A DNA stretch of 64,000 nucleotides, taken from Octopus sinensis. Taxonomy: Eukaryota. The stretch spans positions 81,840,001 to 81,904,000 of the forward strand of contig NC_043003.1 of NCBI RefSeq assembly GCF_006345805.1. Direction: 5' to 3'. The notes below the pieces were generated by a model. It did not search any database. It saw only the letters and a program-made list of their open reading frames with translations, and was not told the DNA's origin. The translations under genes were made by a program, and so were the position numbers. Below are positions 6,111-62,856 of the stretch, one piece after another (position 1 is the first letter of the stretch; every line of letters starts with the position of its first letter).

Positions 6111-6362
6111 TTTAATCCCTTTTCCTATTTTTACTTGTTTCAGTCATTTGACATGTGGCATTAAGATGGTGTTCTGTGGCTATTTAATTGTTTTAACTCT
6201 TATTTCTAGGAACGCTTAGTACTCTCTATCACTTTAGTGACGTCTATAATTTCGCATTTTGGTAGTTAAATTTTTAAAAGCCAACCATATCATTTGTATG
6301 TATATATATATGTGTGTGTGTGTGTGTGAATATATGTGTGTTTGTGTGTGTGTGTGTGTATA

Positions 6363-7194: not shown

Positions 7195-7291
7195 TATATA
7201 GATACATACGTACGTACATACATACATACGTACGTACGTACATACATACATACAAACATACATACACACACACACACATAAAATAATATCA

Positions 7292-12800: not shown

Positions 12801-13061
12801 TCACATTATTTGCTGATTTTTTAATACGAAAAAAAAAAACACAAGAATAATCTTGCAGAACTGTTCTTATTTTTACGTGATAATCACCTGAAGATGATCT
12901 ATTGGCAAAAAACTAATTCCAAAATGTGTTTTCAATTGATGCTACAACCAGATATAAGGAATTTCGAAATTTAGAGATTTACAATACAAAATGAGAATTC
13001 AAAACAACAAAAGTTATAATATTATGCAAATAATATTTATTAACAAAAACAACTTTATGGA

Positions 13062-13169
13062 AATCACCTGAAGAGACACAACTACACAGATGGATACTCC
13101 TAAACCAGTTGCTAAGCATCCCACCCGAAAGGGATCGATGCTAGACTGGTTGAAACAATTGTAGTGATT
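13062..13169 (+). ncRNA. type I hammerhead ribozyme candidate HH2 with expanded stem II
   Basis: AAUCAC-CUGAAGA(13068-13074)...AACCAGU/ACUGGUU-GAAA(13152-13155)-C-AAUU-GUA|GUGAUU. Perfect 6-bp stem I, palindromic stem III, AATAAA at 13170-13175. Confidence 0.65.
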
Positions 13170-13295
13170 AATAAACATTCTCGTATCTTTCATCTTCCGT
13201 CTCTCTCATTCATCAAATACCTAACAAACACGGTGAAAGTGAATGTGCTTTACCGGTAAGCCACCTGGTGTATACCATAAGATTTATCCGCCAAT

Positions 13296-13328
<33 letters not shown>

Positions 13329-14451
13329 ATGTATACACTTCTTACTTACCTCCATATTGCGAAAAGATGCAGTATAATCAAAGGAGGGGCATATCTGTAT
13401 CAGTTGCGTGCAAAAGCACGTTTTTCGCTTGGATGGATGATAATAATTGCGCATTTTAATTTTATCGCCTCACTGATATACAACGAGGGGAAAAATATAT
13501 CGAAGTAATTGTATTAATTTTAAAAAAGATTATCTTTGAATCCATTTTCTCTCTCTCTCTTTCTCTCGCTGTGTAATGTTATAATAAAAACCGAAAATCT
13601 TGTTAAATGCTTCTACCCAGATTTTCCTGGTTCAAATGATAATTTCGCCATTTTTCATGTTCAGAAAAAGAATATTTATCAGTTGTCTTTTGAGCAGTTT
13701 ATTTTAAGCAAGAAACGCTGGTAAGTAGACAAGAATAAAAACAGAAGGGAGATAATCAACTTTACACTTATTCGATGCAAGCTGATGTAAACAGAATGTT
13801 AATGGTCCACTAAGTTTCCTGTGGTCTACTTCTTAATCCGGACAAGATGTATTTCTTAAAATGTGGATATAATGAAAAATCTTTTTGTTTCAAATTTATG
13901 TATCCCTTGGAGGTCCTCAAGAGATATAATTTTTCAGCAGAATATACTGATTACTTTTGAAACCAGCGCCTTTGGTTTAAATATATTCTGCTAAAAAGAC
14001 ATTTAATAAAGGTCTTGATTTTGGCTTGGAAAACGGCGAAAGAAATTAATATTTCGACCGGGAAACTCTGGATAGCTGTATTTAACAGGATTTGTCGTTT
14101 TATATTATAATACTATCTTTACTCTCTTAGTTAATCGAGTGTTTTTCTATTTGTGGAAGCCTTAATACATGAGATATTTATATGTACACAAACATAGGCA
14201 GAGACACACAGACTCGTATAGTACTAGATATAGAATATGAGGACAAATACACAATGCAAAAGAGAGTGCAAGATTTTATTTATCCAGTTGAGTTTTGCGT
14301 TATTCATTAGGTGTCTTGTTTACACTATCGTTCAGATGACAGTTTTATGCCGTCTGAAGAAGCTTGTAAACGCAAAATTTGGAAACCTCATACGAGTTTA
14401 TGTACTTATGAGTTTGCAATTCAATATTCATAGAAAATTGTCAAAGGAGAT

Positions 14452-24939: not shown

Positions 24940-25340
24940 TCACTCTTTTACTTGTTTCAGTCATCTGACTGTGGCCATGCTGGAGCACCGCCTTTAGTCC
25001 AGAAAATCGACCTCATGACTTATTCTTTGTAAGCCTAGTACTTAATCTATCGGTCTCTTTTTCCGAACCGCTAAGTTACGGGCACGTAAACACAGCAGCA
25101 TCGGTTGTCAAGTGATTTTGGGTGGACAAACACAAACATATAAATACACACACACACATATATATACATATAATACATATATACGACGGGCTTCTTTCAG
25201 TTTCCGTCTACCAAATCCACTCACAAGGCTTTGGCCGGCCCGATGCTATAGTAGAAGATACTTGCCCAAGTTGCCACACAGTGGGACTGAACCCGGAACC
25301 ATGTGGTTGGTAAGCAAGCTACTTACCACACAGCCACTCC
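24940..25340 (-). mobile_element. SINE family B, full length
   Basis: Runs from TTTTACTTGTTTCAGTCA...GCTGGAGCACCGCC to TTACCACACAGCCAC on the plus strand. Confidence 0.92.
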
Positions 25341-28300
25341 TGACATTGTTCGCAAAACAAATTATTTACAGTGTTGCTTGTTCAGTACGCCAAAGTAAGG
25401 AAATACTTGATAGACTCCAGTATTATTTCTTTATTTACTTAATTCCGCATTATTTCATTGCCCCGATTAATTATTGCAAACTTGATAGAATAATATCATT
25501 ACTTGCAGTAGGTAGAGTAATCAGGAAAAATAACATGAGAAAAAATAAAACGCCGAGAACGGGGAAGGTCATTGCGAAATTTCAGAGGAGAGGCCGGGCA
25601 AGAGAAGGATACGAAATAAGAAGATACTGAAGATAACTGACACGTAGAGATAGTCATAACACCGTACCGAAAATCATAAACTACAACCACCTACATACAA
25701 ACAGAATAAGATCAATCTTATTGAAAATGTGAACAACAAAGTGGACGGAAAAACGCCACTGGCATACACAAACAAATGAATGTCTATACTAGAATATTAA
25801 AAGTAGTTTATGCAATAGTTTGGGTCAAGATAATTCAAATAAATTTTAGTTAAATATCCAAAATTTAGAGAGATCAGTTAAATAGTGGTTATGAAGTTAC
25901 AAATTGAAAGGTTAAAATTAAGAGAAAAGTTTGAACAAAACCGAGATCCTCAATAGAAACTGAAAAGCCATGAATCCCAATGATCCTGTTAAACAAATAA
26001 ATTAAAATCATTATTGGATCAGATCATTACAATAATAGTTAAAAAGTATGGTAAGTATCGAGAAAATATTAAGAGAATTTATGAGAATTCTCTTAACACT
26101 GCTCAAAAATGTATAAAAGAAATTATTGTCGTAACGAATCATAAAGAATGAGAATGGCCCTAATAAGGAATGTTGAAGCAAATATCATGACGATACTGTA
26201 TTAGTTCTGAATTACACTGAATAAAACTATTAAACTACATTAGAATATCAAAATAATCGGTATTTGTCGTTAGAACTAAGAGTATGCCAAAAACCTTAAA
26301 TATGATCACTTATTAGTATTAAAATATTAAAATATGCTAAGCTACCTAAACAAAATCTATGACTCTTATTACTTGTAATTAAGATCCATATGGTAGTGAT
26401 AGAGATTCTTATCTTGTACTGGGATAAGACTTTATATAATCGGTTTACAGTATAAGAAAGTTCTTTGAATAGAATGTGGATATTTGATCCTTAAGTCATC
26501 AACTGTATTAATGACATCACCTTGCATCTCAAGATTTTCAACAATTCCAAACAGGAAAGATTGCATTCATATTTGTGACTAACATAAGGCTTAACATGTC
26601 TAGCAATGTTCCACATTAGAGAAAAAATCAGAATCGATATTTTTGTTTTAAATCTTCGCAGAGTGCTATGATGGTTTTTCGCTGTGTCGCTTTATGTGGA
26701 GATGATTATATCTTCTTGATTTAAAAATGGTAAATGTGGAACCTACGTAAGTGAAAGGATGTAGATTACATTTATATACAATGTAACCAGGCATTTATTT
26801 ACTAGCATGCATGCAAACTTTTTCTTAGAGTTACGTAATCCGCTTAATATGGAGATTAGAATACTGTTGGTTACATAATTCCCATTTATATGCGGTACAC
26901 AATTATACTCGGCTGAGTTGTTATGTGCGCTAGCCACTTCATTGATAGTAACATTGCTATAACTCATACTCCTGTTATTATAAATACCCCTCGGTCTTCC
27001 AAAATGATTACATTCGTTGTTATTATTACTAGTTTCATAGGTGTTGTTATTTTTTGCTTGGGCGCAAGTTTTTATATTAGTATACATTGTACTCTAATGC
27101 ATTGCTTTATTTATGTAAGATCCGATGTCTGATTAATGAGAATCTACATCAACACGAGTAAAGTACTGATATTTCATTGTCGTCAACATCTAGCTTTTAT
27201 TCATGAAAGAGTAATTAATATCGAAAAAGCTGCTCGCATTTAACACGGACCATCTTACTGGTTCCGTATTGCAGTGCAAGATGTTAAATTATACAATTAT
27301 GAAATATTTATCAATATTTCACCGTAATTACACTGGGAATCCTGCTCTGTTATTCTGATTATCATTTAATAAATTATCATTATAAAGTGGGCAATATTGC
27401 GAATAGATTTAGTTGAATCTGAAGTGGTTTTTTCTAAAAACATTTCCTTGATCTTATAATTGTTTGTGATGTGTTGTGATGTGACTTTGTTGTAAGGTCA
27501 AAAGTTCTTTTACATATATTTTGTTTTATGCTATTGTTTCGTTGCTCCTCACACTTAGGAAGCTAATGTTATCAGTTAGCCCGTTTTGTCTAATATAATA
27601 TTAGGGTGTTCGGTGAAGCTGCATCGGTCTGAGGATATATAAAATATTTTCGCTATCTGAGCAACTTGGACAAAAAATTCTCAAAGAAACGGATATTTTT
27701 CCGACTCGGATTTTTGCATTGGATTAAACTAAAACTATCATGCATCGGCACAGCGTGAAAAGTCACTGTCGTTTATTTATATTAACAAGTGTAGCACTTA
27801 AAAGAGATCAATAAAATGCTAGGTACTTAATGTGCCGCATTCATTAAATCGGATCATTAAATTTGGACTAATATAAATGTAGAGTAGAGAATGCCGATTC
27901 ATATATGTTACATTATATTATAAGCGTGTATTTTCTTATCACCGATATATTAATTTTAATATGGAAACAATTTAATTAAACAAAGAATTGCTGATATTTA
28001 TGATAATTGCAAAAATTATAATGTTTAAAACGTCTATATTTGGTAAAGGCTTATATTTGATTGGTGGGAGAGCAGGAACTCAGTTTATATACTGTTTATT
28101 GTGTATGTGTGTATACACACGTTTATTAGCTAAGCAAGTGTATGATATTTACGTTTGAATAGATCTAATAGAATGTCCGTGTTGAATGGCCATAATGTCT
28201 AAGATAGTTGCCATCCATGTGCCTCTTAAATGTTATGAAGAACAAGTGTAGTCAAGCGTAGCGATGTTAGTAATGTGCATTGAACTCATAACATGGGCCA

Positions 28301-30949: not shown

Positions 30950-31353
30950 AAAACATTGAAAGTAATGGGTTCGATAAATATTGGTGGAACTTAAACTTGA
31001 AACACCCTCCAAGTTAAAGCACAACACAGCAGATATTGTTTGGGATCACAAAGAAAACAATAGGCTCTATTGTTGAAATCAGCTGCCCATGGGGTTAGAA
31101 AAATACACAAGAAAGAAGACATCTATGGACCATTGATAAAGAGTTTGCAAATTCAGTACCAACGATAAACTTGCCGTTTCATGCTTGTTATTATTATAGT
31201 AATAGGATACACATACCAACCTCTGTGGAGCAAAGTATGGCTGAAATTGTGAGCTTGGGGAAAAAACAAGAACCGTTTATTCATACGCTAAAAATGGTCA
31301 TGATATCGGCGACTATAAAAATCTGCAAGGCCTTCTTAGGATTTAAAGAATGA
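30950..31353 (+). mobile_element. 3' fragment of an RLE-type non-LTR retrotransposon (CRE/NeSL/R4-like endonuclease domain)
   Basis: Frameshifted DKYWWNL, KLKHNTADIVWD, IVEISCPWG, KEDIYGPLIKSLQIQY and ISATIKICKAFLGF resemble the PD...E..CP...K...Y RLE C-terminus. Confidence 0.72.
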
Positions 31354-34300
31354 TGGTTAAAACAAGATGCTTTCCCTCACAACCGTGTTACCAGTATGTG
31401 GCTATCCAAAATTTTCCCTAAAGTAAGCCGAGCAAGAGATCATACACACACACTCACACACAGACACACACACACACAAACACAAAAATATATATCTTAT
31501 GTGAAACAGAAGCAGTATTACATTAACACAGCCACATGCGTGTCATACTTAATGCAAAAACATCACAAAAAGCCAAATGGATTGCGGTATTTGTCTGGTG
31601 CTATTATCTCTTATAGTCGTATTGAACTTACTAACACAAATATATCAGTTTCAGATAAAAGGAAATGTCTATCAGGGGTGGTGGCAATACTAGATACTCA
31701 TTTCTGCCTTTTTGGTACTTAACTATCTATATATATTTATACACACACTACAAATTATATGTCGGTTATGCCCGTATTCCATGTGGGAATTATTTAAGTA
31801 TATATATTTCTGTTACGCGATTTATTCCATATTCTGCGATATTAGATACTAAATTGGAAAATATTCCTTCTTTCTTTTTGCTGTTAAGATATTCGCGATT
31901 CTGTCAGCCCCGCAACATTGATGTCAGCGGTTTTTCGGTTTTCGCATGTTATATATACATATTAAATGGATTTCAAATATAACTTTGTCCTACACCCTTC
32001 TCTTCGGCCATATAACTTCTTCAGTCTTCTGATTCATTATTATTACACGGTATTTTGAAGCATGTAAGAAAACTGTATATCTATTCGAGAAGCATTATAT
32101 TATCGTATTAGATAATTCTATTAGAGATCCTCGTTCAATTTAAATTACGGAAATGTATAATTAATGTGTGGTTTACTATGCATTTGTGAAAAGCTCAAGT
32201 TCAATTATTTTTAATTAGCTACTTAAGTTACTACTATATTTTGCAGTCAAATTAATGTGAGTTGATTAACTGGTGTAACTGGAAATATCATGTACATATC
32301 TACTCCTATTATTATAAGCTAACGGGAGACATCGTTTACATTTTTAAGAATTACAACGTTGTGTTAATAATTTACATAATGGAGACATTAATTACCGCCT
32401 ACGTATTTCCTTTTTGCTCTGATATCATCGATCATTTCTATGCTTGATAGTACTTGCATACGGATTTTATTTTTGCATCACCTGTCCTTACAGGTCTGCA
32501 AACTGTGTGCAGTGTAGCTACATGTTCTGATTTGTGAGTAATTTGTGAGGTTTTTTATGAACAAATACATCATGGTCGGTCAGCCGATCCTCTACATACA
32601 ACACAGAGACGAACATTTTAGCATGAGAGATGACACGAGAGAGATTGAGAGAGAGAATTTTTATTGCGAGATCTTGCTTTAAATAACAATGCTGTTCTCT
32701 CTTATATTACATGACTTCCATATATTTCAAGAGCTAGGTCATAAAAAATATGGTGGATACAACATACTGTTTTCTAAAAAATTCTACGTCTTCAGACTTT
32801 TAAAAATTCAGATAAGTTGGTTTTGTTGTAGTTGAGGTTTAAGACAGCGCTCATTGAGAATACCCATAAATAAGCATTTTCCAACCGTGATCATCCATTA
32901 TTTATATGTCTGATTTTATTCTATGATAGTAATTTGTGATTTGAATGAGGCTCGGTTGTTATGTCTTGTACATCGAATCACCACAGGAGAGCTTCTTTGT
33001 TCATATGTTTACTAATTAGTTCAACAATTATGAGGTAAAGGAAATTTAAAATTCCTTATGCTGTAGAATAATACAAAGTGTTAATTCCAGAACTAGACAA
33101 GTAGATTCAATGCCATTGTTGATCATTGTTTTAATTACTATTTTAATTCCAGTTATTAAAGTATGTGAGGCATATTTCATTAAAAATAAAAATCGACAAT
33201 ATAAATGAAATCTTTTGAGCTATCCAAACAAAGTGGTTATTATACTTACGATGAGGAGAAAAGCAACAACAGAAGTAGAGTTTCGACAGCAAGATTATAT
33301 AATACCATTTCTTGAACTGTAACATGAAACAGTCAAAACAATCATCTGAAAAATAGTCACATCTCTATCAAATAATCTCAAAATATTTGCAGCAATGGAA
33401 AAGAAGGGAAAAAATGGAAAAATGAACTTATAACGATATATAGCTGGTTATTTCTGGTGATATGAGGTATCTTGTTCTGAAGGATCTTACATCGAATATT
33501 AATTAAATCGCATTTAAAGTATTAATGAATCTTATATAGTGTATTAATTATATTTGAAAATAAAGAGAAATATATTCTGAACCATTTCATGATATAGTTT
33601 ACAGGTTGTTGATAGCTCTGGCTAAATACGCTCTCTAAATTGCCAGATTGTTTCTGTATATTTGAAATGTATGTCATGATTCATAAGCACAAAGGCATCG
33701 CTTTACATTATTAATTCAGGTACATAATTTGAGTGGTCATAATTGTTACGACTTTTTGTATAAATAATAAATAAGATATACCCCAAAAGTATACAATAAC
33801 CGCAACTGCGCTATCCGAATTCCGACCCGAACAGCATTAATTATTTTCAAAACACAGCTACTTTCAGTTAATATCTCTGTGTATTACATTTTATATTTGC
33901 CTTCTTATACAACTTAAAAAATAAATATATCAGTCGCTGTTCAATTCTCATTTCATTACTATGGAACCCAAAATTCCTTTTCTAATGAAATTAAATATAT
34001 TTACGTGTAATGAATGTATCAAAGTATTTTATTACTTTTTTACTAAACAATAACCCTTCCTTATTTTTTAAAATTTTCATCGAGAATCTAAATGATTTTA
34101 CCTCTCGTATTTAATCTCATAAAATCCTATATAGCTCATATCAATCTTCAATAACTCCTCTTTTAATAACTTTAAAATGAATATATATAGAAGAAAATAT
34201 TTCACTTTAACAACGGTCTTATTAATTTCAATTTATATTAGATATTTTAAAACGAATACATGGATAGGTTCTTCACTGTATCTAAGTTATACGATCGGCA

Positions 34301-35332
34301 TGTATATTTGTTAATATGTTACATTCACGTATAATTCGAGAGACAATTACTATCAAATATGGGCATGCATTATATACACACGTCTAAATGCATATATACA
34401 TGCACACATGCGCACCAATCACGCACAGAAATACAGAGCTACACACACACACATATAGCTCTCAGTTATGTTCCAGGTTACAGCTGACTATATCGATTTG
34501 TGTTAACTTTTATAGGAGTTGTTACTTACACTGTAAACTCGAGGCAAGACGTTTGAAAGACCCTGAACGAAGTTGCACATAAATTATGGCCTGTTACATA
34601 TGCAACTGCCCTTTCTCTGTGCAGTGGAAATACGTGTAGGTCGTCGTAACCCCAAAAGACGTTATATGGCATTGTGAAGTAAAAGGAAATAAATATTGAG
34701 GATATGACAGTCTCCATACACTCTATCGTTATAATTATTGCTTATATATATATATATATATATATATACGTAAATGTCGAATCTCAAGGATATATGCTCA
34801 ACACAGCATTGATGGATATTGTGTATTAAGGTCACCATTGTTTACATATTAAGAAAAAAAATCTTATCATCTCAACAATTTCTCAAACCGTTCACATGAA
34901 GGAATTGTGTTTGCTTCCATTTTGGATGAAGACACAAATTCATGTCAATCTGCACAATGCTTCCTAAAGAAAACAATAAATCAAGGGTAGTTACACTTGG
35001 CTGGCACATTTTGTCTGGTTTTCCCCCTTGGTTTTGACTTTTGGGAAAACAGTCATGCTGTATGGTAAATTTGTTTGCATGATATTATATTATATCCTGA
35101 GTATATGTGATGTTCGTATGTTTATATGCTGAGGTAGTTCGTCATGGGTGGTGAATGTTTCTTCTATGTGTGGAGTTCTTGTGTTCTATATATTCAATTT
35201 TCACGTTCAGGGAAAGAAAGTATCTCTGAGCGGGTAGCAGTGTAGGTGGTGGTTACTCTTTGATTTGTCTAAGTGTAAACTATTGCTTGTGTGTGTATGT
35301 TTGTATGTATATATACACGCACACACACACAC

Positions 35333-35365
<33 letters not shown>

Positions 35366-37606
35366 TATTATATAAGGTGTGCATTATTTTTTAATTATTA
35401 AATTTTGTTGTGTGAAACAAAACGCCACGAACCGTTAGTACAGATGTTTCGTTACAGTGGGTATTTTTGTTTCTTTTGTTTCTGAGTTTTTCAAACACAT
35501 TTGCTTTAGGTTAAACCGTATAGAGTATGTTGTTTGTAGTAGTGGTGCTGACTATATCCAGTCAAGTTTCGAATTTAGAATTCATATAAAATCTCCTTTT
35601 AAGTTTCGTACGTGATATATTTAATTCTTTTTCTTTTGAAAAATTAAAGAGTTGATTTCAAGTTTTCAATTTTCCATTTACACAAATGTCTAGTAGTACA
35701 TGGATCATCTTTAGGATAAGAATCTTTAACTTGATGTTTGCGAACATTCACTCGACTGGCAAAATGCCACCTTGTTTCTCCGATGTAGTTCTCATTACAT
35801 TGTTGGTGTGTGATGCTTTAGATGGGAGTTTCTGTTAATCACTTCATGCAGTTACTATTAATTTTTTCCCATTCTTGAATCTTTTTTCGTTCCTTATTCC
35901 TTGTTCAATTTCTTTTTAACATAAGAAAGGAAATGATCAACTACGAAAGGCAAAGTATACTTTATAAGAATTCGAAATCCGAAACCAAACTGAAAATCGT
36001 CAACACCCTTACTAAAACCAACTTTTATCCGCATCAACTTGTAACACGAGTTTAAAAAGGTGAACAACGAAAGCGATTACACATAACACAGACAATGCGA
36101 AGCATTTTTCCCAAAGCTTCTTGGTACTGTATTTTTTAAAACAAATGGGATTTTTAAGAAAATATCTTTATAAATATTGTGATTTTATGAAGTATATTTT
36201 ACCAAAAAAATATTGTGTGTGTGTCTGATATTATTTCAAAACAAGTCTTGATATTATTTCAAAACCAGCCTGTACAAACTTGCAAGTGCATTCACACAAG
36301 AAAAGGTTATAGCTATACATTTGTCTAAGAGGTCAGTGTTAAAGTAATTGTAGTTTTAAAATACCTACAGGCACTTGAACCTATTATTTACTGCGTATTA
36401 ATAAATATTGAGACAACTGCTCAATTCTATATTAGATTTAACGCAAGTTCTTTGAAAGCAAAATATATTCACATTATAAAGCATTTCTAAAACCAACTGA
36501 AAATTTCCAGTATTAGTTTCTCCAGACTCTAATGGATTATTAGATATGAAGAGATGAAGTAAAAAAAAAAGTTAATGGAAATTCGCTTGTTTCGATAGAC
36601 GACACAACCAATGAAAGAGTCGTTCTCGTTGTGCTCATCCGTTCCAAACAGTGATACATCTCAGATATCTTCCTTCCTTAAACATAAATTCTGAATAAAC
36701 CACTATAGTATCTTTAATATTTGAAACTATTTATAAGATAATGAAGTATACAAGCTGCATATTAATGCCCACCTTTTCCCTGCGGCAACAGAAAATATTC
36801 TTATTTCATTAACTATTATACGGATGACATGAAATATGCAGTGTTCTATCTATCAGGTGGTCCAAAAATAATTACGGTGTTCAACCGTAAATTTTAAATT
36901 GATATATTTGTGTTCAAGATAAATAGTATTAATCTAAAACATATCAACTAGGCTTTACATATTTCTATCCACAAAACAGAATTAATATAATCGGGTACTG
37001 TAGAAGTCTATAGTCCAAGAACCATTGAATTCTTCGAAGAAGTTTTGAACAGCTGCTTATTTGTGGAAAAACATTTACAGAATGACATGAAGTTTTTTTG
37101 AGAAAGTAGAAATCGACTTGAGAGTATTCCCGCTTGTAAATTCAATGTTTCGAGCTGATTTGGGTCAATTTCTGCTAGACATTTGTCATATTCAGAAATT
37201 ACTCCCTTCGTACGACAAACGCTGACCGTAAACGTTGGACTTTTTCTATATATTTGATTTCTTGGCAAAAGATTATTCGCGCGTATGAGTAATGAAGGTG
37301 AGTATCCTCTACGCCAGGCTGGGTTATGACAATCATGGTTTACTTTGAAGATCAACCGATTGACTTCAGTCGGTCGAGCATATGGTGCCAGACGAATGAA
37401 TATAATTACATACCATACAGCTTACTATGGACATTTCTGGTAGTTTGAATACACACATACTAACACACACACGCTCGCATGCGCACACACTTAGTGAATC
37501 AGTTGTGGGGTTCGTTATAATCTAGGTATTTTAATGTTCAGTAGTAGTGAGAGAGTCAAGTTCCACATGCACGTATACATATCAATTATAGCATATATAT
37601 ATATAA

Positions 37607-46241: not shown

Positions 46242-47501
46242 ATATATATTACAGTTTCCCTGACGTACCTGTTTGCTTGAAGTATTTAAATATATAGAAA
46301 GAGTTTGTTTTGTTCAATGGAAAGCTTCACACAATATGACATTCGTATAACTTATGAATCCTTTATATTTCGGACAAAGTACTCATTCATAGAGAAAAAC
46401 AGTTAAAGAAACTTCATTGATACATCATCTGTTGCTGTAATGATAGTACCGACAGCATTAGTAAAGTTGATGAAGCAGCAGCTGCAGAAGTGGCAATCGT
46501 ATTGGTTATACTAACACTAGATGTAGCAAATACTGTAGCGACAGGCGTAGATGCAGCAGCAGTGGTAGTACTGTAGTGTCAGTATTTGTATTAGCTGTGA
46601 CCGTGACAGTATTAATAGCAATAATAGTACGAGCAATAACAGTAATAGTCAGACTATATTAAACATTAGGTTTAGCGTGATTGACTGCCGATAGGCGGGT
46701 CAGACTGCAGATGTAGAAGATTTTGCTGTGTTTGGTGCACTGTATTTATTATATAATATAGGTATGAGGGAATATATCCGTATCGCTGGTGTGTTTGTTG
46801 GATAAGCGGACATGCGGAATACAGTAGGTTGGGTTGTTTTTTTTTATCGAAAGCTGTATATTATATAGCACGTGCCGACCATCAGCAGTCATTCAATGTT
46901 AGGTCAAATGGTATTATAAGCAGAATACCACTTCTGCTTTTAACGATGTTGCTACTGCTGCTGCAATAATTATTACCGTTACCGTTTTTGAAAAATGCTG
47001 CTGTTAAAACTGCAACAGTCAGTAGTGCGACTGTAACTGCCAATACTATTCATACTAATGTTATTACTGCTGCTACAAAACTACTACCGCTATTACTGCT
47101 GTCGCTTTGACTAATTGCGGTACTACTGCCTAAACTCTCACGGTGACAGAGACGAATCAGTGAAGTCATTTTAACTAATATTTCTTTAAATATTTTTTCG
47201 TTTTGGGATTTGGTTTGCCAGATTCTTTATTTGAGTTCGTGTGTTGAAGCATATTCTGTTGTGCCTGGGGGGAGTCACTTTCTTTTTATGTCTTATAATG
47301 TAACACTCTCACCGGTAAAATTTCCACTAATTTCTTATTTTTACTTTCCTAAAATTTTCGTTGCTTCTTGCAACCTTTTCAATAGTCTTGACTTCTGCAA
47401 AAAGGTATTTTGCCCGAAATATAAGGAACTAATAAATACTACATATTTCACAATATGCAAACTTTCCATTAAACTCTCATTTCATATGCATTTGCTGTCT
47501 A

Positions 47502-47597
<96 letters not shown>

Positions 47598-48689
47598 GTA
47601 CTTATGTATGTGACACTTTGTATGTGCGCACGTGCAGCTGTGTGTGGTTTTCGTAGTGATGGTGTAAGTATTGAATATGTATGGGGTATATGTTATGTAG
47701 TAATTGAACAATATCTGATATTGAATGCATTGTGAAATATAGAGACAAGTGTTTTTAGCATCATAAAATATAACACCTATTTCACGATGATATCTACTCT
47801 GACTATGAAGGAACACAACACCAATTCTTTATTTTGTGAACGTATGGAAATGTTCTGAAAAGCATTTTCTCTTTACATAAACGATTTAATTGCATACATA
47901 TCTAGTCCACTACGTGATTTTATATTCCATACTGCATAAAGTTATTAATGATATTGTGGTTCAAACACGCTAGGTCCTAACTAAATTTGTCTCTTTGTAC
48001 TGTTCTTTTTAGTCAAACTAAATCAAACTTATCATTTTCGTCATAAAGCGTTTTTAAAAATGGTTAATTTCTTGATATTGCTCGATGCTCATATCTAAGA
48101 GTTTTAGAACTTCAAATAAGATATAAGCTGTTATTTTCTGTTCAGGTCTAAATGTATCTAAAAATCTAGCAACCAATAGGTTGCTTGATTTTTATGTACA
48201 TTTTGGAAATTAGATTTCAGTTACAAGCTTATGGTGTTAGTTTATATGTAATTATTTTTCTTGTTTCTCGTTTTTCTGTTTTAATGATGACGTTTCTAAT
48301 AGGATTTATACTTCGCCATGAGAGATATAGTTCTTAGAACATGACAGAATTCCAGAAGGATATTAGTAAACAAATTTCACTCTCACGACGTTTTCATGTT
48401 CATAGGATTAGCCAATATAGTGAGGGTGACACAAATTTGTTAACCACATAGTACAGTCTGCAGCTATCGTTTAGAAAATTTCATTTATGATATGGATTCA
48501 TCTTTGCATCTGTATGAATGGCAAAGGTGCTGCTAACTGAGAACCTTAATAAATTAACCTTTCAGTAAGCGTAATTGGTCCATTTGAACGCTTCCTATAG
48601 CAAATCAAAGTCAACCGGACCACCACTATGAACACCGTCACCATTACACAAATGCTACCACAACTAAGACCTATATTACTACTACTACT

Positions 48690-51929: not shown

Positions 51930-53419
51930 TAAAATGACAATGAAGCAAAAACTGATTTTTAAAATATACTGAGGGAATTTCAATGCCAAAGAAAAAGGAA
52001 CCAACAGTACCGAGGTCTATAAGTCAATAATTATCTTTAGCCGTGTTATCAACAACCAGTTTATAGTTGTCACATCGACTCAATTTTGCGCCAAATTGTG
52101 TATATTTTTATGAAGTAGAAATAAGCGTAAATATATATATAAAAGAATACGCGTTCTGATGGACCCTATTTATACACACACATATAATAACACTGATTTT
52201 GTAAACATGCATACATTTTACATACAAATATATATATTATGCACAAGCAATTTCTAAATAGTATTCCTTTCATAGCTCATATGTGGTAGTGTATAAACGA
52301 GGGACAAGAGGGCATGGGAAATATGAAATTTCAGTTATTTCATCAATGGAGTTAACAGATTGAAACCTTGAATCAATTATAAACGGGATATACTATTGAA
52401 TATACGTGGGTGTTAAGAAATTAATTTTCAGCGGTAGAATAATTTAAATAGTTTTAGCATTGCGTGATGTATACAGTACTTAAATTATAAAATGTATTAA
52501 CGAAGAAAAAGTGTTATTTAATTGCTTGTTTATAATTTGATTCATTTTTAGAGAGTAAACACTAAAATGAAATGGAAATTTTAATGACTTAGAGGCTGGA
52601 GTTTCTTTTATTTACTTTTTGTTCGTGATTTGGACAACCATTAGCTTCAGATTAAAGGTCGAGGAAAAGACGCCAGTTCCAAGTTATTATCACGTGATCA
52701 AGAAAAGAATTCGATAACATCTTCATTGTATTTATCTGCAACGAAAAATCGTTTATTATTTTTTTTTTCTTTTATTCAATGTTCTTTGTATTTGAATATC
52801 ATAAAACTTTTCCAATTATGAATCTGCTGACGATTACTTTGATTACAGCTGATTACAGCTGACCTATTGGAACATCATTAACGAGTAATTTTAAAGTGTA
52901 AAAAACTAACTTCTGTATTATTGTAATAAATTTATAATAAAAGCTATTTTGCTTGAGTTTTATAGATGACGTTTACTTATTGAATACATTCATACGTAGT
53001 GTAACTCATTAGTAAAAGTGTACAAAATATATCGGAAATGCTTCAAATCTATGAACTAATATACTTGACTTTTCAATACACTCACTTGCATTTCTATTCA
53101 AAGCAATGATTTCAGAATGATATGATAGGGCTAAAATAGAAACAGATGGAATTCTGTTTAAACAGACATGAAATCATGAAATGTTTTAACTACTTTTGAA
53201 CAGTAAGAGGTAACAATTAACAAGGTATCAGTAGCAGCAGCTGTGGAATATCGCAGTATTACAACTATTTGTATTATGATTTTAATGGAGTGGAATTATC
53301 ATATTCTTCCACAAAAGCACTCGGACACTATTATAACAACACGAATAAATATGGTGATAAGTCATTAAAACAATCTATCTGCTTCTCTCTTTCATTTACC
53401 AGTGTGTCCGTCTCTGTCT

Positions 53420-53433
53420 TTCTCTCTCTCTCC

Positions 53434-53467
<34 letters not shown>

Positions 53468-53475
53468 GTATATAC

Positions 53476-53525
<50 letters not shown>

Positions 53526-53562
53526 GTATATGCATATATATATATATATATGTATATATATG

Positions 53563-53594
<32 letters not shown>

Positions 53595-53845
53595 ATATAT
53601 AATATGTATATATACATGTGCTTGTATACATATACATACACACATACATATACAAAGCCCACACATTAAAACATTGTGTAAGTACTGTGGATGACGTCAG
53701 GTAGACATAGACAGTCAATGTACTTCATCGGCTACTAGTAACACCCAATATTAGAGAACTGCTTATTCATACATACAAACACACACACACATATACATAT
53801 ATATACATATATATATACATATATATATATATATATGCATATACC

Positions 53846-53880
<35 letters not shown>

Positions 53881-53980
53881 TATATATTATATATATATAT
53901 ATACATATATATTTTTACTATACAAACACATATGCACCAACATACACACACACACACACATATATATACATATATAATTT
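53420..53980. repeat. two large (TA)n/(CA)n/(CT)n compound microsatellites
   Basis: Read directly from the sequence. Confidence 0.95.
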
Positions 53981-54540
53981 AAAACTCTTCATTTAAGGAT
54001 TTAAGGAATTTTTGCCCATGTGTTGAATTGTAATGAAAAATTTAAGATGGAAAATGCACAGAATGTACATATTCTTTCATCAAGTAAAATTATAACATAG
54101 TCAACCGGTTCCGCTTTTGCTAAGTATGCCAACGAAATTAGTGAAAGTATTATAAAGTCATGTTATCGTAAGAGATTTTTCATCCTTATTAGTAGCAGGA
54201 AAGTTCTTTTGTAAATGATTCAGCAGGTAAACAAATATAAAGGAAGGTTATTAGTGATTGCAATTATTAAAAGCAGGTGCGGTAGTTACAATTTTGGGGG
54301 CTGGGTGGGGCGGTAAATTGACTGTATTTACATTGAGAAGTCATAAATTCCTCGTGCATTTGTCTCTCTGTGGCTTTTTAGAGAGGCAATTGCATAACAA
54401 TGAATATATAATGTTTATATACATTTTTTTTATATTTACATATCACTGAAATTTCATTCCTTTCAGCCTTTTGCAGTGTCGATATCGTAATAACGACTGC
54501 AAATTTTAACGAAAGTTTATTAAAATTTTTGGTTGAATAA

Positions 54541-55407
54541 GATTTAGGAAGTTTCCATAGCAAACGTCCAAGTCTATTTGGAGGGCATTGAATTGAATAT
54601 GACAAATATTTATTCGAAATAGGAAAGACAATATTAAATCTATGCAGCAGTTATGTAATACAAAGACGAATTTGTTCCAAAGAACAGTTTTTTACCTACA
54701 AGCCTAGTTTCCTGTATATGTTGAGACACGTGGAAAATTTACCTCAAGCCATCGAAACTATATCTTTATGACATGTTGCTAACACAATTAAATCTCCCAC
54801 AATTAATTCTGATAGCAGATTTGTGGAACTATCTGTGAAACTGAGTCATTTCGAGGATGGTCCACGAATGAGCAGGGTAACGGTAAAGGTTTTAGTTATA
54901 CCAAAATGTATGAGAGCAACCATTAATGGATTCCAGGCTCTACATACTTTTGAAATGCTTATTTATACTTGAAACAAGTATTATAGAGGGTGAGAAATCG
55001 GGTTTATCATGATCCAGAATTATCCTTCAGAAACAACAATTTTAATGCCGCAGAAACTCCAGAAAAAATCTCTCGTTTCAGTCTTCAAAAGTCATGTTCT
55101 AACTACTTCGGTAGAAGCTAATCATCGATTTCCTACATGAAAAGAAGAGTTAAATGCATCTTTTAACATAGCTATTTCCAAGCTACGAGCTTGATTTACG
55201 GCTGAACGCGTTTGTTTTACAGCTGACACCATGGCTACGATATTATTTTCCAGCAACCCTGGTTCATCTACAGAAATGAATCTGGTATATGAAATACATC
55301 CGCAGGATATTTCTATCAGTAGTAGCGCTTTTGATGTTAGCCATAAGGTGGATTTCTGAAGAGATCTTACGTATTCCACAGCAGATTCTATGGTAAATTG
55401 TAATTAG
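54541..55407 (+). CDS. cryptic 288-codon frame, open only if TGA is read as sense; product unknown
   Basis: No TAA, TAG or TGG in frame. TGA at 54589, 54769, 54970, 54991, 55138, 55192 and 55357. Ends TAG 55405-55407; first ATG 54718. No recognised domain. Confidence 0.4.
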
Positions 55408-55699
55408 GTGCCTAAAAACTAGAGACTTTCATCCCTAAAACGTCTATTACAAAGGCCAGTCATGGAAAGTATGTGAAGCTACAGCAGCTATGAGTACCGA
55501 GTTGTAAATTTTTAAGGCACAGTCGATGTCCTGTACTGCTGACTACAAATAAGGATGAATTAAATGCAATATTAAGATGAAAATCAGCCTACGAGCGAAC
55601 TAATATAAAGATAGGCTTTTATTCACCAAACATTTTTCTGAAAAACGATCAATTGCGAAATGTTAAGATACGACTGTTTTTATTATACCATGAGCGTAG

Positions 55700-58381
55700 T
55701 AGTGCACAGGGCCTCTCGGCTCAGCTTCCTCAGTCCTGGAGAGGAATTAAGGAATTTGTATGTCCTGAGAGTTTCGAGGAGAAAACGCTGCTGAATTTGC
55801 CGCAAGATACAGATCCGAGATTTATTCAGTCGGAAAGGTTTTGAACATTATACTGAACAACATTCTGAAGGGCTACGCCACCAGCAAGATAAGACCATAG
55901 CGAAAGTGGTATACCCGGTATACCAAGATACCGTTTGTGTGAATTAAAGCAAAACCAACAAACAGATCAGCCCTAGCGGGAGGTAGCATTATTGAGGAGA
56001 GAGCCAAGTGGTTTTAAACTAACATATGGAGTTACGAAGAAACATGATCTAGCTTTGCAAAGCAGAGTCACTACGGATAAAAAGCAGAGAGAGAAGGGGA
56101 GGTGTTGGAAGGTCTTTTCTAAAAATCCCTTCCAGTTCCCCGGTGACCTTCTCGGAAAGCCGAAAATTAATATGCTCAAAAGGGTAGATAGCAGAATAGT
56201 TGTAGAGTATGTCGACCCCAGAGGGAGCATTCCATGAGGTGACTCACTTTCCTTAACCATTGCTGAAATCCTACACCTCCTTCGATATGGTAAGCTTCGC
56301 TTTCACATAAAGATATGCTTTCATTCAATAACGATTCTGAGGTGAGTGCAGTGGAGGTGAAATCCTTGGGAATGTCTGCTCCATAACCATTTATCAACAT
56401 GTATAGCATTTACAAAAATGTCCCACTAATATTAAGGAACGTAGCAAAACGTTTACGTTTGATCAGGAAAAGCGAAAAGGCACCGGACACTCGCTGAGAA
56501 GTGTTTTGTCCCCAGTAAACAAGTAAACTCATCAGGACATGATCAGTTTCGTGAGATCTCTCAACGTAAAGATGAAGATTTTTTTAGGCCATCATTGCCA
56601 AAAACTAACGTTACATGTCTTGACCAACGAGAAAAGCAACAGAAAGTATCCAGAAAGAAGAAATTCCAAGCTGCTTTGGATGTTTCAGCAGCGATCCGCC
56701 ATATCATTATGGACGCAAGAAAGAATAACAACTTACTCCCCATTGTTTGGTTAGATCTTGCCAAGGAGTACCCAAGCGTGCCTCACCAGAGAATCCAAAG
56801 TACATTGGAATTCTATCAATTAACTACATGTGTAGTCAGACTTATTAGCCCCGTCACAGATTGACTGAGGTTCAATGTAGGAAATTTCACTAATATGAGT
56901 CATCAATTGGAAATAAGCGTACGGCTGAGTGCATAATTTCTGTTCTGTGGTGCTGTTTGTGTCGGCCATGGTCTCACTGCTAGAGGTAGGAAGGTGACAG
57001 TTGAGTTGTCTCGAAACTGACAGAAACACAAGAAATCCAGTTTGCAAGGAGTAACGATTATGACATCATCAATCGAAGGAATACAACAGATATTGAGTTC
57101 GCTGGAAAAGACGTCAACCCAGCGAAATCTTCGAGCTTCAATATACTTAAAAGAAAGCCTGCTGTTAGGGGAAAGTTACTATCATACCACTAAAGATATA
57201 AACGATACTGAATACACAAAACATTTCAAGGCAACAGGTTAAGGATAGTTGATAAAAGCCAGCTCCTTATATTGTTCGAAGTATGATGCTTTCAGTATAG
57301 TAGTGGCCATCATTGCTTTACAACGTTTTGCTTTACCACTTAGATAGAAAGAAAGGAAATGCGGTGCAGTATGTTCATGTGAATGTCAGCTCAGTCAATC
57401 TGTAAAGCAAGACCTCTGAGCTCCGTGAACCAATTTCCACAAAGCCACAAAGGCAACAGCAATCATTTCCAGATTGCTTCTGCTTGAGGATGTGGAAGTC
57501 AGATACACCCAGACCATATAGTTTGGCAGAAAATGGAAACCCCATGAGGCTGTGAAGGAAGGAGAGACATGCTGAAATCACCAGAATGCTGATGTAGTCT
57601 GGCAAGGACGACTAGGACTTGGTAATTACAACACCAAGAAGAGGGCAATACGAATAACAAGATTAAGTGAGAGCTTGTAGTGCAAAAGATCTGTGATGCA
57701 GCCGAGGAGGATCACTGAGTGGAGGCAGTAGCGCTTTCCCACCATACTCAATAGATGTAGTGGGATCAGACAACTGATTACTCCCTGTATTGGAAGAAAC
57801 TCTAGAGCACTGAAGAGGGAAGATTGTTCTCTTCTTCGTGCTATTACATAACTCTTGCCCACACCAAACAACCTTAAAACATCGGGTGAAACAAAAGACC
57901 CGTCCTAAAAGCAGTGCGGAGTAATACGTCGCACACTGAACCCCGTTTTGAACGAATGCCCTAGGGCACTAATAGAAGGCCGATAGGAGAGTAACCATAT
58001 CAAGTTTCTTTCAGAAATTGCCCAGTCGGCTTATAGGATGAAGTCTAATAAACATTAGCTAACATCATGAAATGTTATTGAATTCTTAAAGGAGGACGAC
58101 AAGGCTCACAAGGCGAAATCAATTGTAGGGTCCTGTTTTCTGTTTTGCGTTCAACTTCAGACTAGGGGAGGCAAGTGCACCTGACGGTCAAACTAGTCTC
58201 CTCAGCGGAGATAGTGGTAACACCATTGCGACTAGACATTCCTGTACTCTAGGAATGCAAAAAAACAAACATCTTTGTCTATCGAACTCACAGGGCCCTG
58301 GGAGGTCAAACTCGATATTTCCCACCAGGTAAATAAATCAAAATATCAGGACTACTGCTGCTGTTGCTGCTGCTGCTGCTG

Positions 58382-58432
<51 letters not shown>

Positions 58433-58800
58433 TTAAGCACACACACAAGCATACATTCACACATACAAACATTTACATGTGGCTTCATTATACAAACATT
58501 TGCGTGGCTTCATTATCAAAGGATGGGATGTGACCTCACTCCCTATTGAAGTCGACTGCTGCTGCTCTCTATCTAGATCAGTGTGCTATTTCATGCGGAA
58601 GATTGGTCCGGAACCCAGATACCGAAGACAGCCATTAATGAAATAGGAGACTGGATCAATATGGCTATGATTGACAGGATTTCACAAGCAGAACCATTAA
58701 GTAGGTAAAGACTGCTAGCTCAATCCTCGCTGCATTACCCAGGCAAAGCGTACAGGTTAACGGGAGAAACTCTTGTAACCTGCTGACGATACGGAAGTGT
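55700..58800 (+). mobile_element. HERO-like (R2 superfamily, RLE) non-LTR retrotransposon, decayed
   Basis: KVFSKNPFQF...LLGKP; RT IVWLDLAKEYPSVPHQRI; LLPTPNNLKTSG...CPRALIEGR; IELTGPWE...SKYQ; KGWDVTSLPIEVDC; GSIWL. Many stops and frameshifts. Boundaries approximate. Confidence 0.82.
58333..58432. repeat. (CTG)n(CTA)n microsatellite inside the HERO endonuclease domain
   Basis: Read directly from the sequence. Confidence 0.95.
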
Positions 58801-59759
58801 TTCCTGCATTGCAATAGATTTAGAAGATCTTTCAAAACCTGTCAGTAGCTCCTGCAATTTCTGCTTGGAGAAAAGCATCTCTAATGTTTATTCCACCAAT
58901 TAAACACATTCTTTTGAGAGAACACTCAGTTGCAAACTTTTAAGACAACACAACCATTATTATTGTTATTCTAATAGCAAGAAATTGTCAGTTTCTATTT
59001 CACATTATTGTTACAAACTTTCATTGTCTATGATATATATTGCTGTGATAATCGGAGATCCTAATTTTTTTTTCACCTAAATCAAGCTGAATCTCAAGTT
59101 CATTTTTTGTTGACAATCCTTAGAGCGATTTTCACATTTTAAAGTTTCCGACACTGGTGAATATTTGCGTAGTCACATATAGTTTGCTAAAATCCATAGT
59201 ATACTGCTACATTTAGATGGCAAACTATCCAGTGGATTATTATTTTTTTTTTTTTTTTGATCATGAGTTCAATCCTAGTCTGAGCACAATGTACATAAAT
59301 ATGGTACGGAATGACCTAATAATTCAACAGAGATTAAACTGCCTGAATAATATTTTGCTGATTAGAAATAAATTTAAAACTTGAGAATGTTCTTTCAAGT
59401 TTTATCTTTGTTCGGTTCATAAATTACACAATTACACGTAATTAATAGATTATCGAAAGTTATAGATTATGAATAAATATTTTAGTTGTTTCAATAAAGA
59501 TCAGTTATAGAGGTTTTCTATAATAGATATTCTGTCACCCGTTTTAACTTTGTTTCTAAACGGTCTTGCTGGGTTCCTTGTTCCCGAAAAAATATATACA
59601 CAATAAGAAGTACGGGAGTAGATACCCTCCCCACACAACTTTGGGATCAGATATTTTTTAAAACGAGACGTTCTTATAGATGAGAAGGTATTAATTAAAA
59701 ATTAGTGTGATTATTCTAATTCAACTTATAGATACTGATGTTCAAAATTTGGCACACTT

Positions 59760-59940
59760 CAACTCATAGATATTGAGTCTCAAAGTTTGGCACAATTTCG
59801 GCGGGAGTGTTAAGTCCATTGCATCAACCTCAGCACTCATCTTGTAGTTATTTCATCGACCGTGAAAGGATGAAAGGCAAAATCGATATCGGCAGAATTT
59901 GAACGCTGAACGTAAAAATGGACGAAATTCCGCTGTGCTC
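59760..59940 (-). mobile_element. SINE family A, diverged
   Basis: GAAAGGATGAAAGGCAAAATCGATATCGGCAGAATTTGAAC...GGACGAAAT. Confidence 0.78.
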
Positions 59941-62856
59941 GACTTATTCAGTTCATAAATATTAACGTTTTGTCACCAATGTTTCCGCTAACATTAGCAA
60001 TACGTTTTCGCAATGGCACAAGTGAATATATTTCGGTTTTATATCTTGAGTGAGAGAAATGTATAATTATAACTATTAGTTAAATATTCGCAGATGATTT
60101 AATATTATTTAAGAATTAATTATGTTTCAATCCCTGAAGGTGTACATTTGGGAATTACAGTAACCTTAGTGAATTTATACTCAGCACACCAATGGAATAC
60201 ATGCTGCAATAGAAGAACGGTTGAAGAAAAAATGTATATCTCACATTCAGTTTTGTTTTAACCCAGAACCTACCTGGTATTCACGCGAAGTTTTTAATAT
60301 CTATTACCTTTCTTATTATCAATGTAATTACACATCTTAAAATACATGGACTCGAGACTGAAATTTATACAACGTTGATGTTTAATTTTTAAATATATTG
60401 AAAATTTAACAAGCCAGGGTACATACATATTGGAAAATTTTGTTTATATGGCATTTATATAACAGCCTTGATGAATCTATGTCAATAGGTCGTTTTGCCG
60501 TTGTGAAAGTTACGACAATGCAGCTGGAATTATGCCCAATCATGTACACGAATTACGAACTTAAGAATTCATATAACACAAGAATGAGTTGAGGAATAAT
60601 TTAATATATATCTGAAGAAAATATTCTTAGTATTTAATAATAGTCTTTGAACATGAAGGGATGCTCTTCGATAATTTCAAATTATCACGTCTGGCTTTGG
60701 AAAGTCAGTTGCCGATGTGTACGTAAAATAATGTAGTGTGAAAAGTCACTATCGTATTTACACCCGTTTTAAAAAGTACACTGCGAGAAGAATGACAGAG
60801 AGATCTATTCAAATATAATTGCACTTGATGTTTACCAGATTAGAGTATTTTGTGCTCCCTTTGAGCTGCAAAGTAAATAGATGATCAGCCATTTACGTAT
60901 ATTTCACAGGAGTGAATAGACTGGATTATTAGACGGGTTAGCAACGTGAATAATATGCGTTACCCAATATTCCCTTAATATACATTTAAAAGCTGTTCTA
61001 TAGCTTTTGTGTGCATTAGTTTGCATAAACCTGTATATAATATATAAGGAAAATGACAGCTATATATGTATGTGACATTCGTTATAGTCTTTAATGCAAT
61101 TTATGGAAGTTTTGTATGTGACGTGAAGAACAATTTCAGAGATTAAACAATGTAGCATGTATATATATATTTAGGAAGTCAACGAATATATTTTCTTGAA
61201 TTCTTTTGTTCTGTCGAGAACTTGACTTCGTCAGTAACACTTATAGTATGGGTTCAGTCCTTTTCATATAAGTGTTGTTCGATAATCGAAATGCTAATTT
61301 AAAAATATTGTAAATATGGGATCACGTTGTTTATTCTCTTTGGAAAGTTGATTTCCATTTGCACTCGTCAAAAGCACAGCAGTAACATTTACACTACGCT
61401 TTGTAGACGTTAATTGACACATTGAGGTGCATATAGATATAGTAGTATTTTTGTTATTCATTATCTTTTTGATTTTCTAGTTCTTTTTCGCTGCAAATAT
61501 TAGTTTCTTAGCACAAATGTACATATCAATCAAACTTCTTTACACGATGTTTGTGTTTAGATATTTGGTATGATATGAGCAGACCAATTTGAAATATTAA
61601 ACGATATTAATAACCTTTCGTGCCTACACTCTTCTACAGAAAGGTACACAGAAAAAAAGGAGAGAAACAAGGAGAGAAAAAATGTATTTAGTGGCTACCG
61701 ATCTATCATAGCGACTGCCGGGCAGCGCTTATATATATATATATATTTATATATGCGCTTATCCATAGAATATGTAACTGAATGTAAAATTCAAAAATAT
61801 ATTGTGTCCAATAAATCTGTGTCTGTAGGATTTTAGACTTGGCACTAAATTAGTAGACCAACCATTCCAATTTGTGATGGCTGTTACCGAATATTTTTAA
61901 ATGTTCGTTACCACCGTTTTTATTGACACTATATACAGATGATTCTAAAATATTTTTGAATTGATTAATATCATTCTATGCTGGTAGGAACAGCAGAAAT
62001 TGTAGGAAAATATCTGTACGAAGAAAATTTCAAGGTCATGACCAGATCAATGACATTATATAAAATAAATCATACTATAACAACTTAAACAGTTCTCTTT
62101 AGCCAGCAGGAAGCAAGTGGGATGCAAATAAATATTTAAGCCAGATCGTTGCAAAAATATGATACACTCATGGGGAATTAAATTAAAACCCATTTTGAAA
62201 ATCCGATTAGAGACCTTTAGCTTCTCTAACACCAGTAACAGATTTTACATAAACAGAAAGTAACACATATTACTGAAAATCCGTTTTCCCAATAAGAGGT
62301 CAAGAATTGCAATGCAGGAATGGCAAATAGCATGATTTGGCAAAACAAAGGTCCATTGATTTCGTTTCAACACGCTGTCAGTACGCAGAATAGTGTTTTA
62401 ATTCCAATCAATTTGAAAATTGGAGAACCGTTTCCATCGAATGTGCGGAAGATTACGAATGTCGTTATAACTTCATATATAATGCTATGCATATGGATGT
62501 GCTAATGAGATTTCTATTGATTTTCTTAAATTGTCTTCTCTTAGCCCAAGTTTTGTTTAGGGAACGACAACATGGTATTATGTGCGTTCATGTATCTGTG
62601 CGTCTGTGTATGTTGTTATAACAAAGTCAACTAAATAAGGAAATCTTGAAGTCATTTAATACGTTCGTTTCGGGTTTGCATAATAGGTAATACGAAAAGT
62701 ATATATTACGTAAAACTTTTTGACTTTTAACATTTCAAAATATGGTTTGACTACTTAACTTATACGTCTCAATGCCAGTAGAAACTAGCCGTTATATACT
62801 CACCTTATGCGGATATTCTGACAATGATTCTGAGTCACTTATTACAGTGACACCAT

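What the first reader, a model, noticed from the sequence alone, without database searches (positions are those of the whole stretch)
54412..55407. Hidden 288-codon frame where TGA appears to replace TGG
Seen (hand-parsed): 54541-55404 has 0 TAA/TAG, 0 TGG and 7 TGA, while the other two plus frames hold roughly 27 TAA/TAG and 10 TGG over the same span. A further 42 open codons precede one TAA at 54538. TGA contexts look Trp-like (IYT*NKYYRG*EIG, FPT*KEEL, LRA*FT, VDF*RDL). G content falls from codon position 1 to 3 (about 23/17/15%) and GC3 is about 29%, as in coding DNA. The product is not a hydrophobic animal mitochondrial protein, and I found no SECIS or UCA-tRNA nearby. Possible explanations: a gene from a UGA=Trp source (Mollicute, organelle plasmid or virus), read-through or A-to-I repair (UGA->UGI, a poor ADAR context), multi-Sec decoding, or a pseudogene with CGA/TGG->TGA hits (four CGA remain intact). 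Caveat: TGA is at about background frequency, and my rough window-wide chance estimate is of order 1%.
Basis: partly seen in the sequence, partly recalled or inferred. Interest (0 to 1): 0.76.

Follow-up and report, generated by a model that had tools for sequence, protein, structure and literature searches.

The report
Unconserved stop-poor frame between old retroelements
This 288-codon stretch really has TGA as its only stop and no TGG, but it matches no known protein, is frameshifted in a close relative and drifts without selection, so it is not a working recoded gene and is likely a chance pattern, with a smaller chance that it is a dead fragment of foreign DNA that read TGA as tryptophan.

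Summary
It is real single-copy chromosomal DNA, shared with related genomes about 2% apart. It is not a functioning recoded gene: three runs from three studies of a related organism lack 4 bases inside it (frameshift), and 6 of 22 listed substitutions are synonymous against 5.5 expected without selection. No SECIS, tRNA, family, homologue or fold was found. Length alone is ordinary here: 3 other TGA-rich runs of 288+ codons in 664 kb. The frame is more gene-like than such controls (low GC3 plus protein-like composition: 0 of 251), yet the full pattern is still expected roughly 0.15-0.75 times per genome by chance. It lies in 1.35 kb of unique DNA between two old, truncated retroelement copies and is not part of either. 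Verdict: chance in neutral DNA 0.62; recently inserted dead gene from a TGA=Trp source (Mollicute or mitochondrial-code element) 0.28; functional recoding 0.03 or less.

The parts
54541..55407 (+). 288-codon frame free of TAA/TAG, with 7 TGA and 0 TGG, closed by TAG at 55405-55407; no start codon context identified; neutral drift
54412..54540 (+). 42 further open codons in the same phase, ended by TAA at 54538; no significant coding signal on their own (z 0.86 and -0.72)
54350..55694 (.). about 1.35 kb of single-copy sequence that holds the frame, bounded sharply by two truncated repeats
54786..54789 (+). 4 bases absent from runs X5, X7, X9 (organism B, three studies): the frame is shifted there; X8 does not cover the site
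   Evidence: table 4
55398..55399 (+). site where X5, X7, X8 and X9 carry 21 extra bases that include an in-frame TAG (read by eye from the table)
   Evidence: table 4
54008..54349 (-). fragment of an old dispersed repeat (43 other matches at 67-80% identity); other copies run on past this point; their translation looks like a Penelope-type GIY-YIG end (motif recalled, Pfam did not call it)
55695..58900 (+). decayed, 5'-truncated non-LTR retroelement, standard code (TGG present); 59-72% identical to other copies; weak match to a Pfam RVT_1 ORF; RLE-type label recalled
55416..55889 (+). second TAA/TAG-free run (158 codons, other phase) running from the unique DNA into the retroelement; its unique 93 codons show no coding signal (z 0.0 and -0.62)

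Best explanation
The frame lies in single-copy nuclear DNA that changes without detectable selection and is frameshifted in a close relative, and its lack of TAA, TAG and TGG is most likely a chance pattern rather than a gene. Mechanism: in 36% GC sequence with fewer TA dinucleotides than expected, TAA/TAG-free runs of this length arise by the thousand in a 2.7-Gb genome; TGA occurs at its background rate; an occasional run also lacks TGG and has a low GC3, and a scan that looks for odd codon patterns picks that one out. Shown: counts, single copy, neutral substitution pattern, frameshift in relatives, frequency of long runs. Inferred: that the extra gene-like bias is the tail of the chance distribution.
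For: Neutral divergence: 6 synonymous of 22 listed substitutions, 5.5 +/- 2.0 expected; positions 1/2/3 hit 8/7/7 times; the other five frames give 6-8; omega 0.2 is rejected at P 0.0009, omega 0.3 at 0.014. Frameshift in 3 of 3 runs that cover the site. No homologue in 1.84 billion representatives apart from one repeat-protein hit at E 2.5e-4 summed over 7 stretches, none in three length classes of the 5.8-billion set, none in phages, plasmids, prokaryote genomes or metagenomes. Real-genome control: 3 other complex TGA-dense runs of 288+ codons in 664 kb, extrapolating to 5,600-7,500 per genome; shuffles give about 1,500 (18 of 500 windows). Given such a run, 3 of 30,000 simulations match it on composition, GC3 and TGG=0 together: 0.15-0.75 expected per genome. 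The rest of the unique segment shows no coding signal. Both flanking elements are old and truncated on the side facing the segment, as expected if they inserted into older DNA; a neutral frame survives 10% divergence with P about 0.002.
Against: The frame is more gene-like than real controls: codon position by base chi-square P 0.009, GC3 deficit P 0.007; 1 of 251 control runs is as protein-like, 7 of 251 as low in GC3, 0 of 251 both, and 0 of 22 controls of 200+ codons lack TGG. The joint estimate rests on 3 simulated hits, on statistics chosen after seeing the data, on an exponential tail fit that includes GC-richer runs, and on recalled average amino-acid frequencies. Neutral drift and a frameshift do not separate chance from a dead fossil. 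Truncated flanks also fit a later insertion with deletion. The selection test cannot exclude weak constraint (omega 0.5: P 0.16).
Confidence: 0.62

Rival explanations
1. Dead fossil of a foreign gene read with TGA=Trp (gut Mollicute or its phage/plasmid, or an element translated in mitochondria). About 1.35 kb would have been pasted into the germ-line chromosome at a break, shortly before the sampled lineages split, and has drifted neutrally since; the nuclear ribosome stops at the first TGA, so no protein is made.
For: Coding-like codon bias beyond controls; 7 TGA to 0 TGG and 42 to 16 A- over G-ending twofold codons; all seven TGA are unchanged in run X7, whose differences are all listed (tables 3 and 8); sharp borders with two truncated repeats; single copy. 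Mycoplasma made up 97.5% of the gut community of the common octopus in PMC9082898 (passages read). About half of mitoviruses decode UGA as Trp and some match invertebrate mitochondrial codon usage, PMC10308907 (passages read).
Against: No homologue anywhere; no mitovirus RdRp match in the frame; composition is unlike typical Mollicute proteins (Lys 6%, Ser 11%, His 3.5%; comparison recalled); flanking unique DNA is not gene-like; no target-site repeat or significant terminal inverted repeat; the age must fall in a narrow window (older than the ~2% split, younger than about 5% divergence).
Confidence: 0.28
2. Ordinary standard-code pseudogene or transposon ORF whose codons decayed to TGA (CGA by CpG deamination, TGG by G-to-A change), or the antisense shadow of a decayed gene in the minus frame that shares third positions.
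For: Decayed retroelement ORFs of this genome do give long TAA/TAG-free, TGA-bearing runs. The minus frame sharing third positions has only 6 TAA/TAG and the same GC3 dip.
Against: Seven point-mutation stops, all TGA, with no frameshift is improbable; CpG o/e 0.77 and four CGA intact; GG o/e 0.84 and mixed bases after TGA, so no hypermutation signature; 0 of 20 fetched copies of the neighbouring element match the frame below E 0.8; the minus frame has 10 stops and no Pfam match below E 0.08 in the three open minus-strand stretches scanned.
Confidence: 0.07
3. Functional nuclear gene whose seven UGA are decoded as Sec, read through, or edited A-to-I to UGI.
For: TGA sites are shared with relatives; widespread A-to-I recoding in coleoid cephalopods (recalled).
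Against: Frameshift in relatives and neutral substitution pattern; no SECIS or tRNA; folding not beyond shuffles (z -1.04, 20 shuffles); A after a 5' G is a poor ADAR site (recalled); no start context; AlphaFold pLDDT 35 (uninformative without an alignment).
Confidence: 0.02
4. Assembly contamination by a TGA=Trp organism.
For: None beyond the codon pattern.
Against: It lies inside a 117.5-Mb contig; one 4,145-base contig of run X5 spans 54252-55800 across both borders; 12 runs of 6 studies hold part of it.
Confidence: 0.01

Closest known systems
Chance or 'spurious' open frames in AT-rich animal intergenic DNA
   Same: Single copy, no homologue, neutral substitutions, broken in a sister lineage, TGA at background rate.
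   Different: Codon-position bias and lack of TGG are at the far tail of controls.
Mollicute-to-animal horizontal insertions (genetic code 4)
   Same: TGA-for-TGG pattern, low GC3, a plausible donor in the gut (PMC9082898, passages).
   Different: No Mollicute homologue in prokaryote genome or protein collections; no neighbouring gene-like DNA.
Endogenized mitovirus or other mitochondrial-code viral fragments
   Same: UGA as Trp, 36% GC (PMC10308907, passages, for the code).
   Different: No RdRp domain or motif; no structural match (low-confidence model); 0 papers for the four-term search on animal nuclear mitovirus copies.
Multi-UGA selenoproteins (selenoprotein P type)
   Same: Several in-frame UGA.
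   Different: No SECIS, no family match, not conserved.

Membership tests
Selenoprotein gene | SECIS element downstream of the frame | tested here: not met
   Rfam scan of 52000-60000 at E<=1: 20 matches, all microsatellite-driven miRNA models, none SECIS; SECISearch not run; a distant 3' exon is not excluded
Selenoprotein gene | Homologues with Cys/Sec at UGA positions, frame conserved | tested here: not met
   Pfam with TGA=Cys: 0 families; frameshift in 3 of 3 covering runs
A-to-I stop repair or read-through gene | Purifying selection across the UGA codons | tested here: not met
   6 of 22 synonymous, 5.5 expected neutral
A-to-I stop repair or read-through gene | RNA shows G at the A of UGA | not testable with these tools
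   No RNA holder listed
NUMT | Homology to animal mitochondrial genes | tested here: not met
   Pfam under codes 4 and 5: 0 families; the mitochondrial genome itself was not compared
Mollicute-derived insertion | Homologue in a Mollicute genome, phage or plasmid | tested here: not met
   pattern scans find only close relatives; host-specific uncultured species may be missing
Mollicute-derived insertion | TGA used in place of TGG in a coding-biased frame | tested here: inconclusive
   7:0 and GC3 deficit, but 0.15-0.75 such frames expected per genome by chance
Mollicute-derived insertion | Empty site in an outgroup | not testable with these tools
   All laid relatives carry the stretch; no outgroup genome held
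Mitovirus-derived endogenous element | Mitovirus RdRp domain (PF05919) | tested here: not met
   No Pfam match in the frame; genome-wide search 0 candidates but its control also rang nowhere, so uninformative
ORF of the neighbouring non-LTR element | Other copies carry a related 5' region | tested here: not met
   0 of 20 fetched copies match P0001 below E 0.8; six copies start matching at 55700-55706 and several share a different upstream region
CpG-decayed pseudogene | CpG depletion and mixed lesions | tested here: not met
   CpG o/e 0.77, four CGA left, no TAA/TAG or frameshift in this genome

The most novel reading that the evidence does not exclude
The 1.35-kb segment is a recent germ-line insertion of a gene with no known relative from a TGA=Trp donor, such as a host-specific gut Mycoplasma, its phage, or an unknown virus or plasmid of cephalopod mitochondria, preserved as a fossil in the nuclear genome: a record of a donor that no database holds.
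Probability: 0.28. Interest if true: 0.55.

Novelty: not a real feature. Interest (0 to 1): 0.2.

Why it matters
On the best reading it does not: it shows that long TAA/TAG-free frames with TGA at background rate are common in this genome and should be judged against real-genome controls. If the fossil reading held, it would be evidence of DNA transfer from a code-4 symbiont or mitochondrial element into a cephalopod germ line and would point to an unsampled donor; it would still be a dead fragment, not a new decoding mechanism.

Tried and rejected
Homology: Pfam, PHROGs, NCBIfam 0 families for the TGA=W protein; PDB best E 0.013; own genome 1 match of 43 candidates scored. The single representative hit P0002 is a tandem-repeat protein (helicase-associated type, label recalled); best pairwise segment 12 of 37 identical, driven by two Trp; rejected as a summed-repeat artefact. 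The viral-contig scan reported 1 candidate passing its local threshold but 0 loci; unresolved, and one exact 8-residue match is about what chance gives (30 and 35 candidates in the larger collections all failed). AlphaFold from one sequence pLDDT 35 and Foldseek 0 matches at E<=0.001: uninformative. No language-model look-alike search was obtained for this protein. Expression: no RNA holder listed; this is not evidence either way. Only 4 of the 12 holding runs were laid, so variation among the closest samples was not seen. Idea that the frame is the neighbouring element's 5' ORF: rejected. Idea of a DNA transposon with terminal inverted repeats (54179-54195 / 55543-55559): rejected, 20 of 500 shuffles score as well. 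G-to-A hypermutation: rejected. Earlier findings: three look-ups, nothing. Literature: searches gave no paper on such a locus in their listings; only PMC10308907 and PMC9082898 were read, as passages; supplements not opened.

Full report
Observation. The counts hold: 54541-55404 has 288 codons, 0 TAA, 0 TAG, 7 TGA, 0 TGG and 4 CGA; the other + frames have 28 TAA/TAG and 10 TGG; G falls 23/17/15% over codon positions and GC3 is 29%. Forty-two open codons precede a TAA at 54538. The window lies in a 117.5-Mb contig of a 2.72-Gb assembly, G000.

Real DNA, single copy. DNA and protein searches of G000 return only this place (both searches score only best candidates). Twelve runs from six studies hold part of it. 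I laid four: one contig of X5 spans 54252-55800 with 29 differences (1.9%) and crosses both borders of the unique segment, which excludes contamination.

No selection. One search lists 40 of 64 difference rows; 22 fall in the frame. For X7 and X9 the listed rows account for every difference on the contigs covering most of the frame (16+7 and 14; tables 3 and 8), and none touches a TGA, so all seven TGA are shared with X7. Six of the 22 are synonymous, 5.5 +/- 2.0 are expected without selection, and codon positions are hit 8/7/7. Omega 0.2 is rejected (P 0.0009); omega 0.5 is not (P 0.16). X5, X7 and X9 (organism B, three studies) lack 4 bases at 54786, a frameshift; X8 (organism D) has no cover there. 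All four carry 21 extra bases near the 3' end. Which state is ancestral at 54786 could not be polarized. This removes read-through, editing and multi-Sec as working mechanisms; there is also no SECIS or tRNA and no unusual RNA folding.

No relatives. Under TGA=W: no family in Pfam, PHROGs or NCBIfam; no hit among 281, 1,226 and 16 candidates in three length classes; one hit among 1.84 billion representatives, a repeat protein whose E 2.5e-4 is summed over seven stretches; none in phages, plasmids, prokaryote genomes or metagenomes; one candidate but no locus in viral contigs (unresolved). Pfam is also empty under codes 5, 10, 25 and TGA=R. The single-sequence model is poor (pLDDT 35) and its fold search is uninformative.

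Chance. Shuffled windows reach 288 codons in 5 of 400 and 18 of 500 trials. Real DNA is more permissive: in 664 kb (40 scattered 10-kb stretches, 200 kb of flank, the window) 26 runs are longer, most of them transposon ORFs or simple repeats; after dropping low-complexity and TGA-poor runs, 3 others of 288+ remain, and the tail extrapolates to 5,600-7,500 per genome. Given such a run, TGA=7 is average and TGG=0 has P 0.048. Against chance: codon-position bias P 0.009; of 251 real TGA-dense control runs of 120+ codons, 1 is as protein-like, 7 as low in GC3, 0 both, 28 lack TGG, and 0 of the 22 that reach 200 codons lack TGG (the protein-likeness score uses recalled average frequencies). Jointly, 3 of 30,000 simulated runs match all three features. 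Chance is therefore sufficient but not proven.

Surroundings. Left, 54008-54349 is a fragment of an old repeat (43 other matches) whose other copies continue past 54349; their translation recalls a Penelope-type GIY-YIG end on the minus strand (recalled, Pfam did not call it). Right, from about 55695, is a decayed non-LTR retroelement: other copies are 59-72% identical with many non-triplet gaps, and it matches weakly (E 1.7e-4) a nearby ORF that Pfam calls RVT_1. Six copies begin to match at 55700-55706 and several share a different upstream region; none of 20 fetched copies matches the frame. Both elements are thus cut on the side that faces the 1.35-kb unique segment. A neutral frame would stay free of TAA/TAG and frameshifts with P 0.30 at 2% divergence, 0.05 at 5% and 0.002 at 10%, so it cannot be a gene fossil as old as these elements; capture at the element's 5' end by template jumping is unlikely for that reason (inferred). 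Either the segment is old ordinary DNA and the frame is chance, or it was inserted recently. No target-site repeat or significant terminal inverted repeat was found, and the rest of the segment is not gene-like.

Mechanism and odds. Most likely (0.62) neutral DNA whose stop pattern is a statistical tail. Second (0.28) a recently inserted, untranslated fragment from a TGA=Trp donor; donors exist in principle (Mycoplasma 97.5% of the common-octopus gut community, PMC9082898, passages; UGA=Trp in about half of mitoviruses, PMC10308907, passages), but every membership test needing homology failed. Standard-code pseudogene 0.07, functional recoding 0.02, contamination 0.01.

Novelty. On the best reading there is no feature. 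Six literature searches listed no paper on such a locus; the library omits most subscription journals. Three look-ups of earlier findings returned nothing.

Noticed in passing
window 55695-58900 (+): Old, heavily decayed non-LTR retroelement family; all copies found are 59-72% identical; several other copies keep an upstream region with a zinc-finger-like motif (by eye) that this copy lacks.
   Followed up: partly
window 54008-54349 (-); L016, L017, L019, L020: Abundant old repeat whose longer copies translate to a Penelope-like GIY-YIG end (recalled motif; not called by Pfam).
   Followed up: partly
L078:1736-4039 (+), about 12 kb right of the window: 768-codon stop-free ORF with Pfam RVT_1 (E 2.7e-30): a young non-LTR element.
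   Followed up: partly
L043:3422-6412 (-): 997-codon TAA/TAG-free run; its first ~670 codons read as an LTR-retrotransposon pol (by eye), the rest carries 9 TGA. Shows how transposons produce long TGA-only runs in this genome.
   Followed up: no
window 55133-55158 and 55543-55568: 26-base direct repeat (77%) that gives similar peptides in the two TAA/TAG-free phases; probably chance, significance not tested.
   Followed up: no
window 46970-47653 (+), 31099-31719 (+), 34774-35391 (+), 25046-25633 (+): Next-longest TAA/TAG-free runs of the window (228, 207, 206, 196 codons), all with TGG; 25046-25627 is a 194-codon stop-free frame.
   Followed up: no
Viral-contig scan: One candidate passed the local tblastn threshold but no locus was returned; identity unknown.
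   Followed up: no
window 12975-14015 (+): 347-codon run free of TAG/TGA with 16 TAA: a mirror-type pattern, showing that long runs under other stop sets also occur in this window.
   Followed up: no
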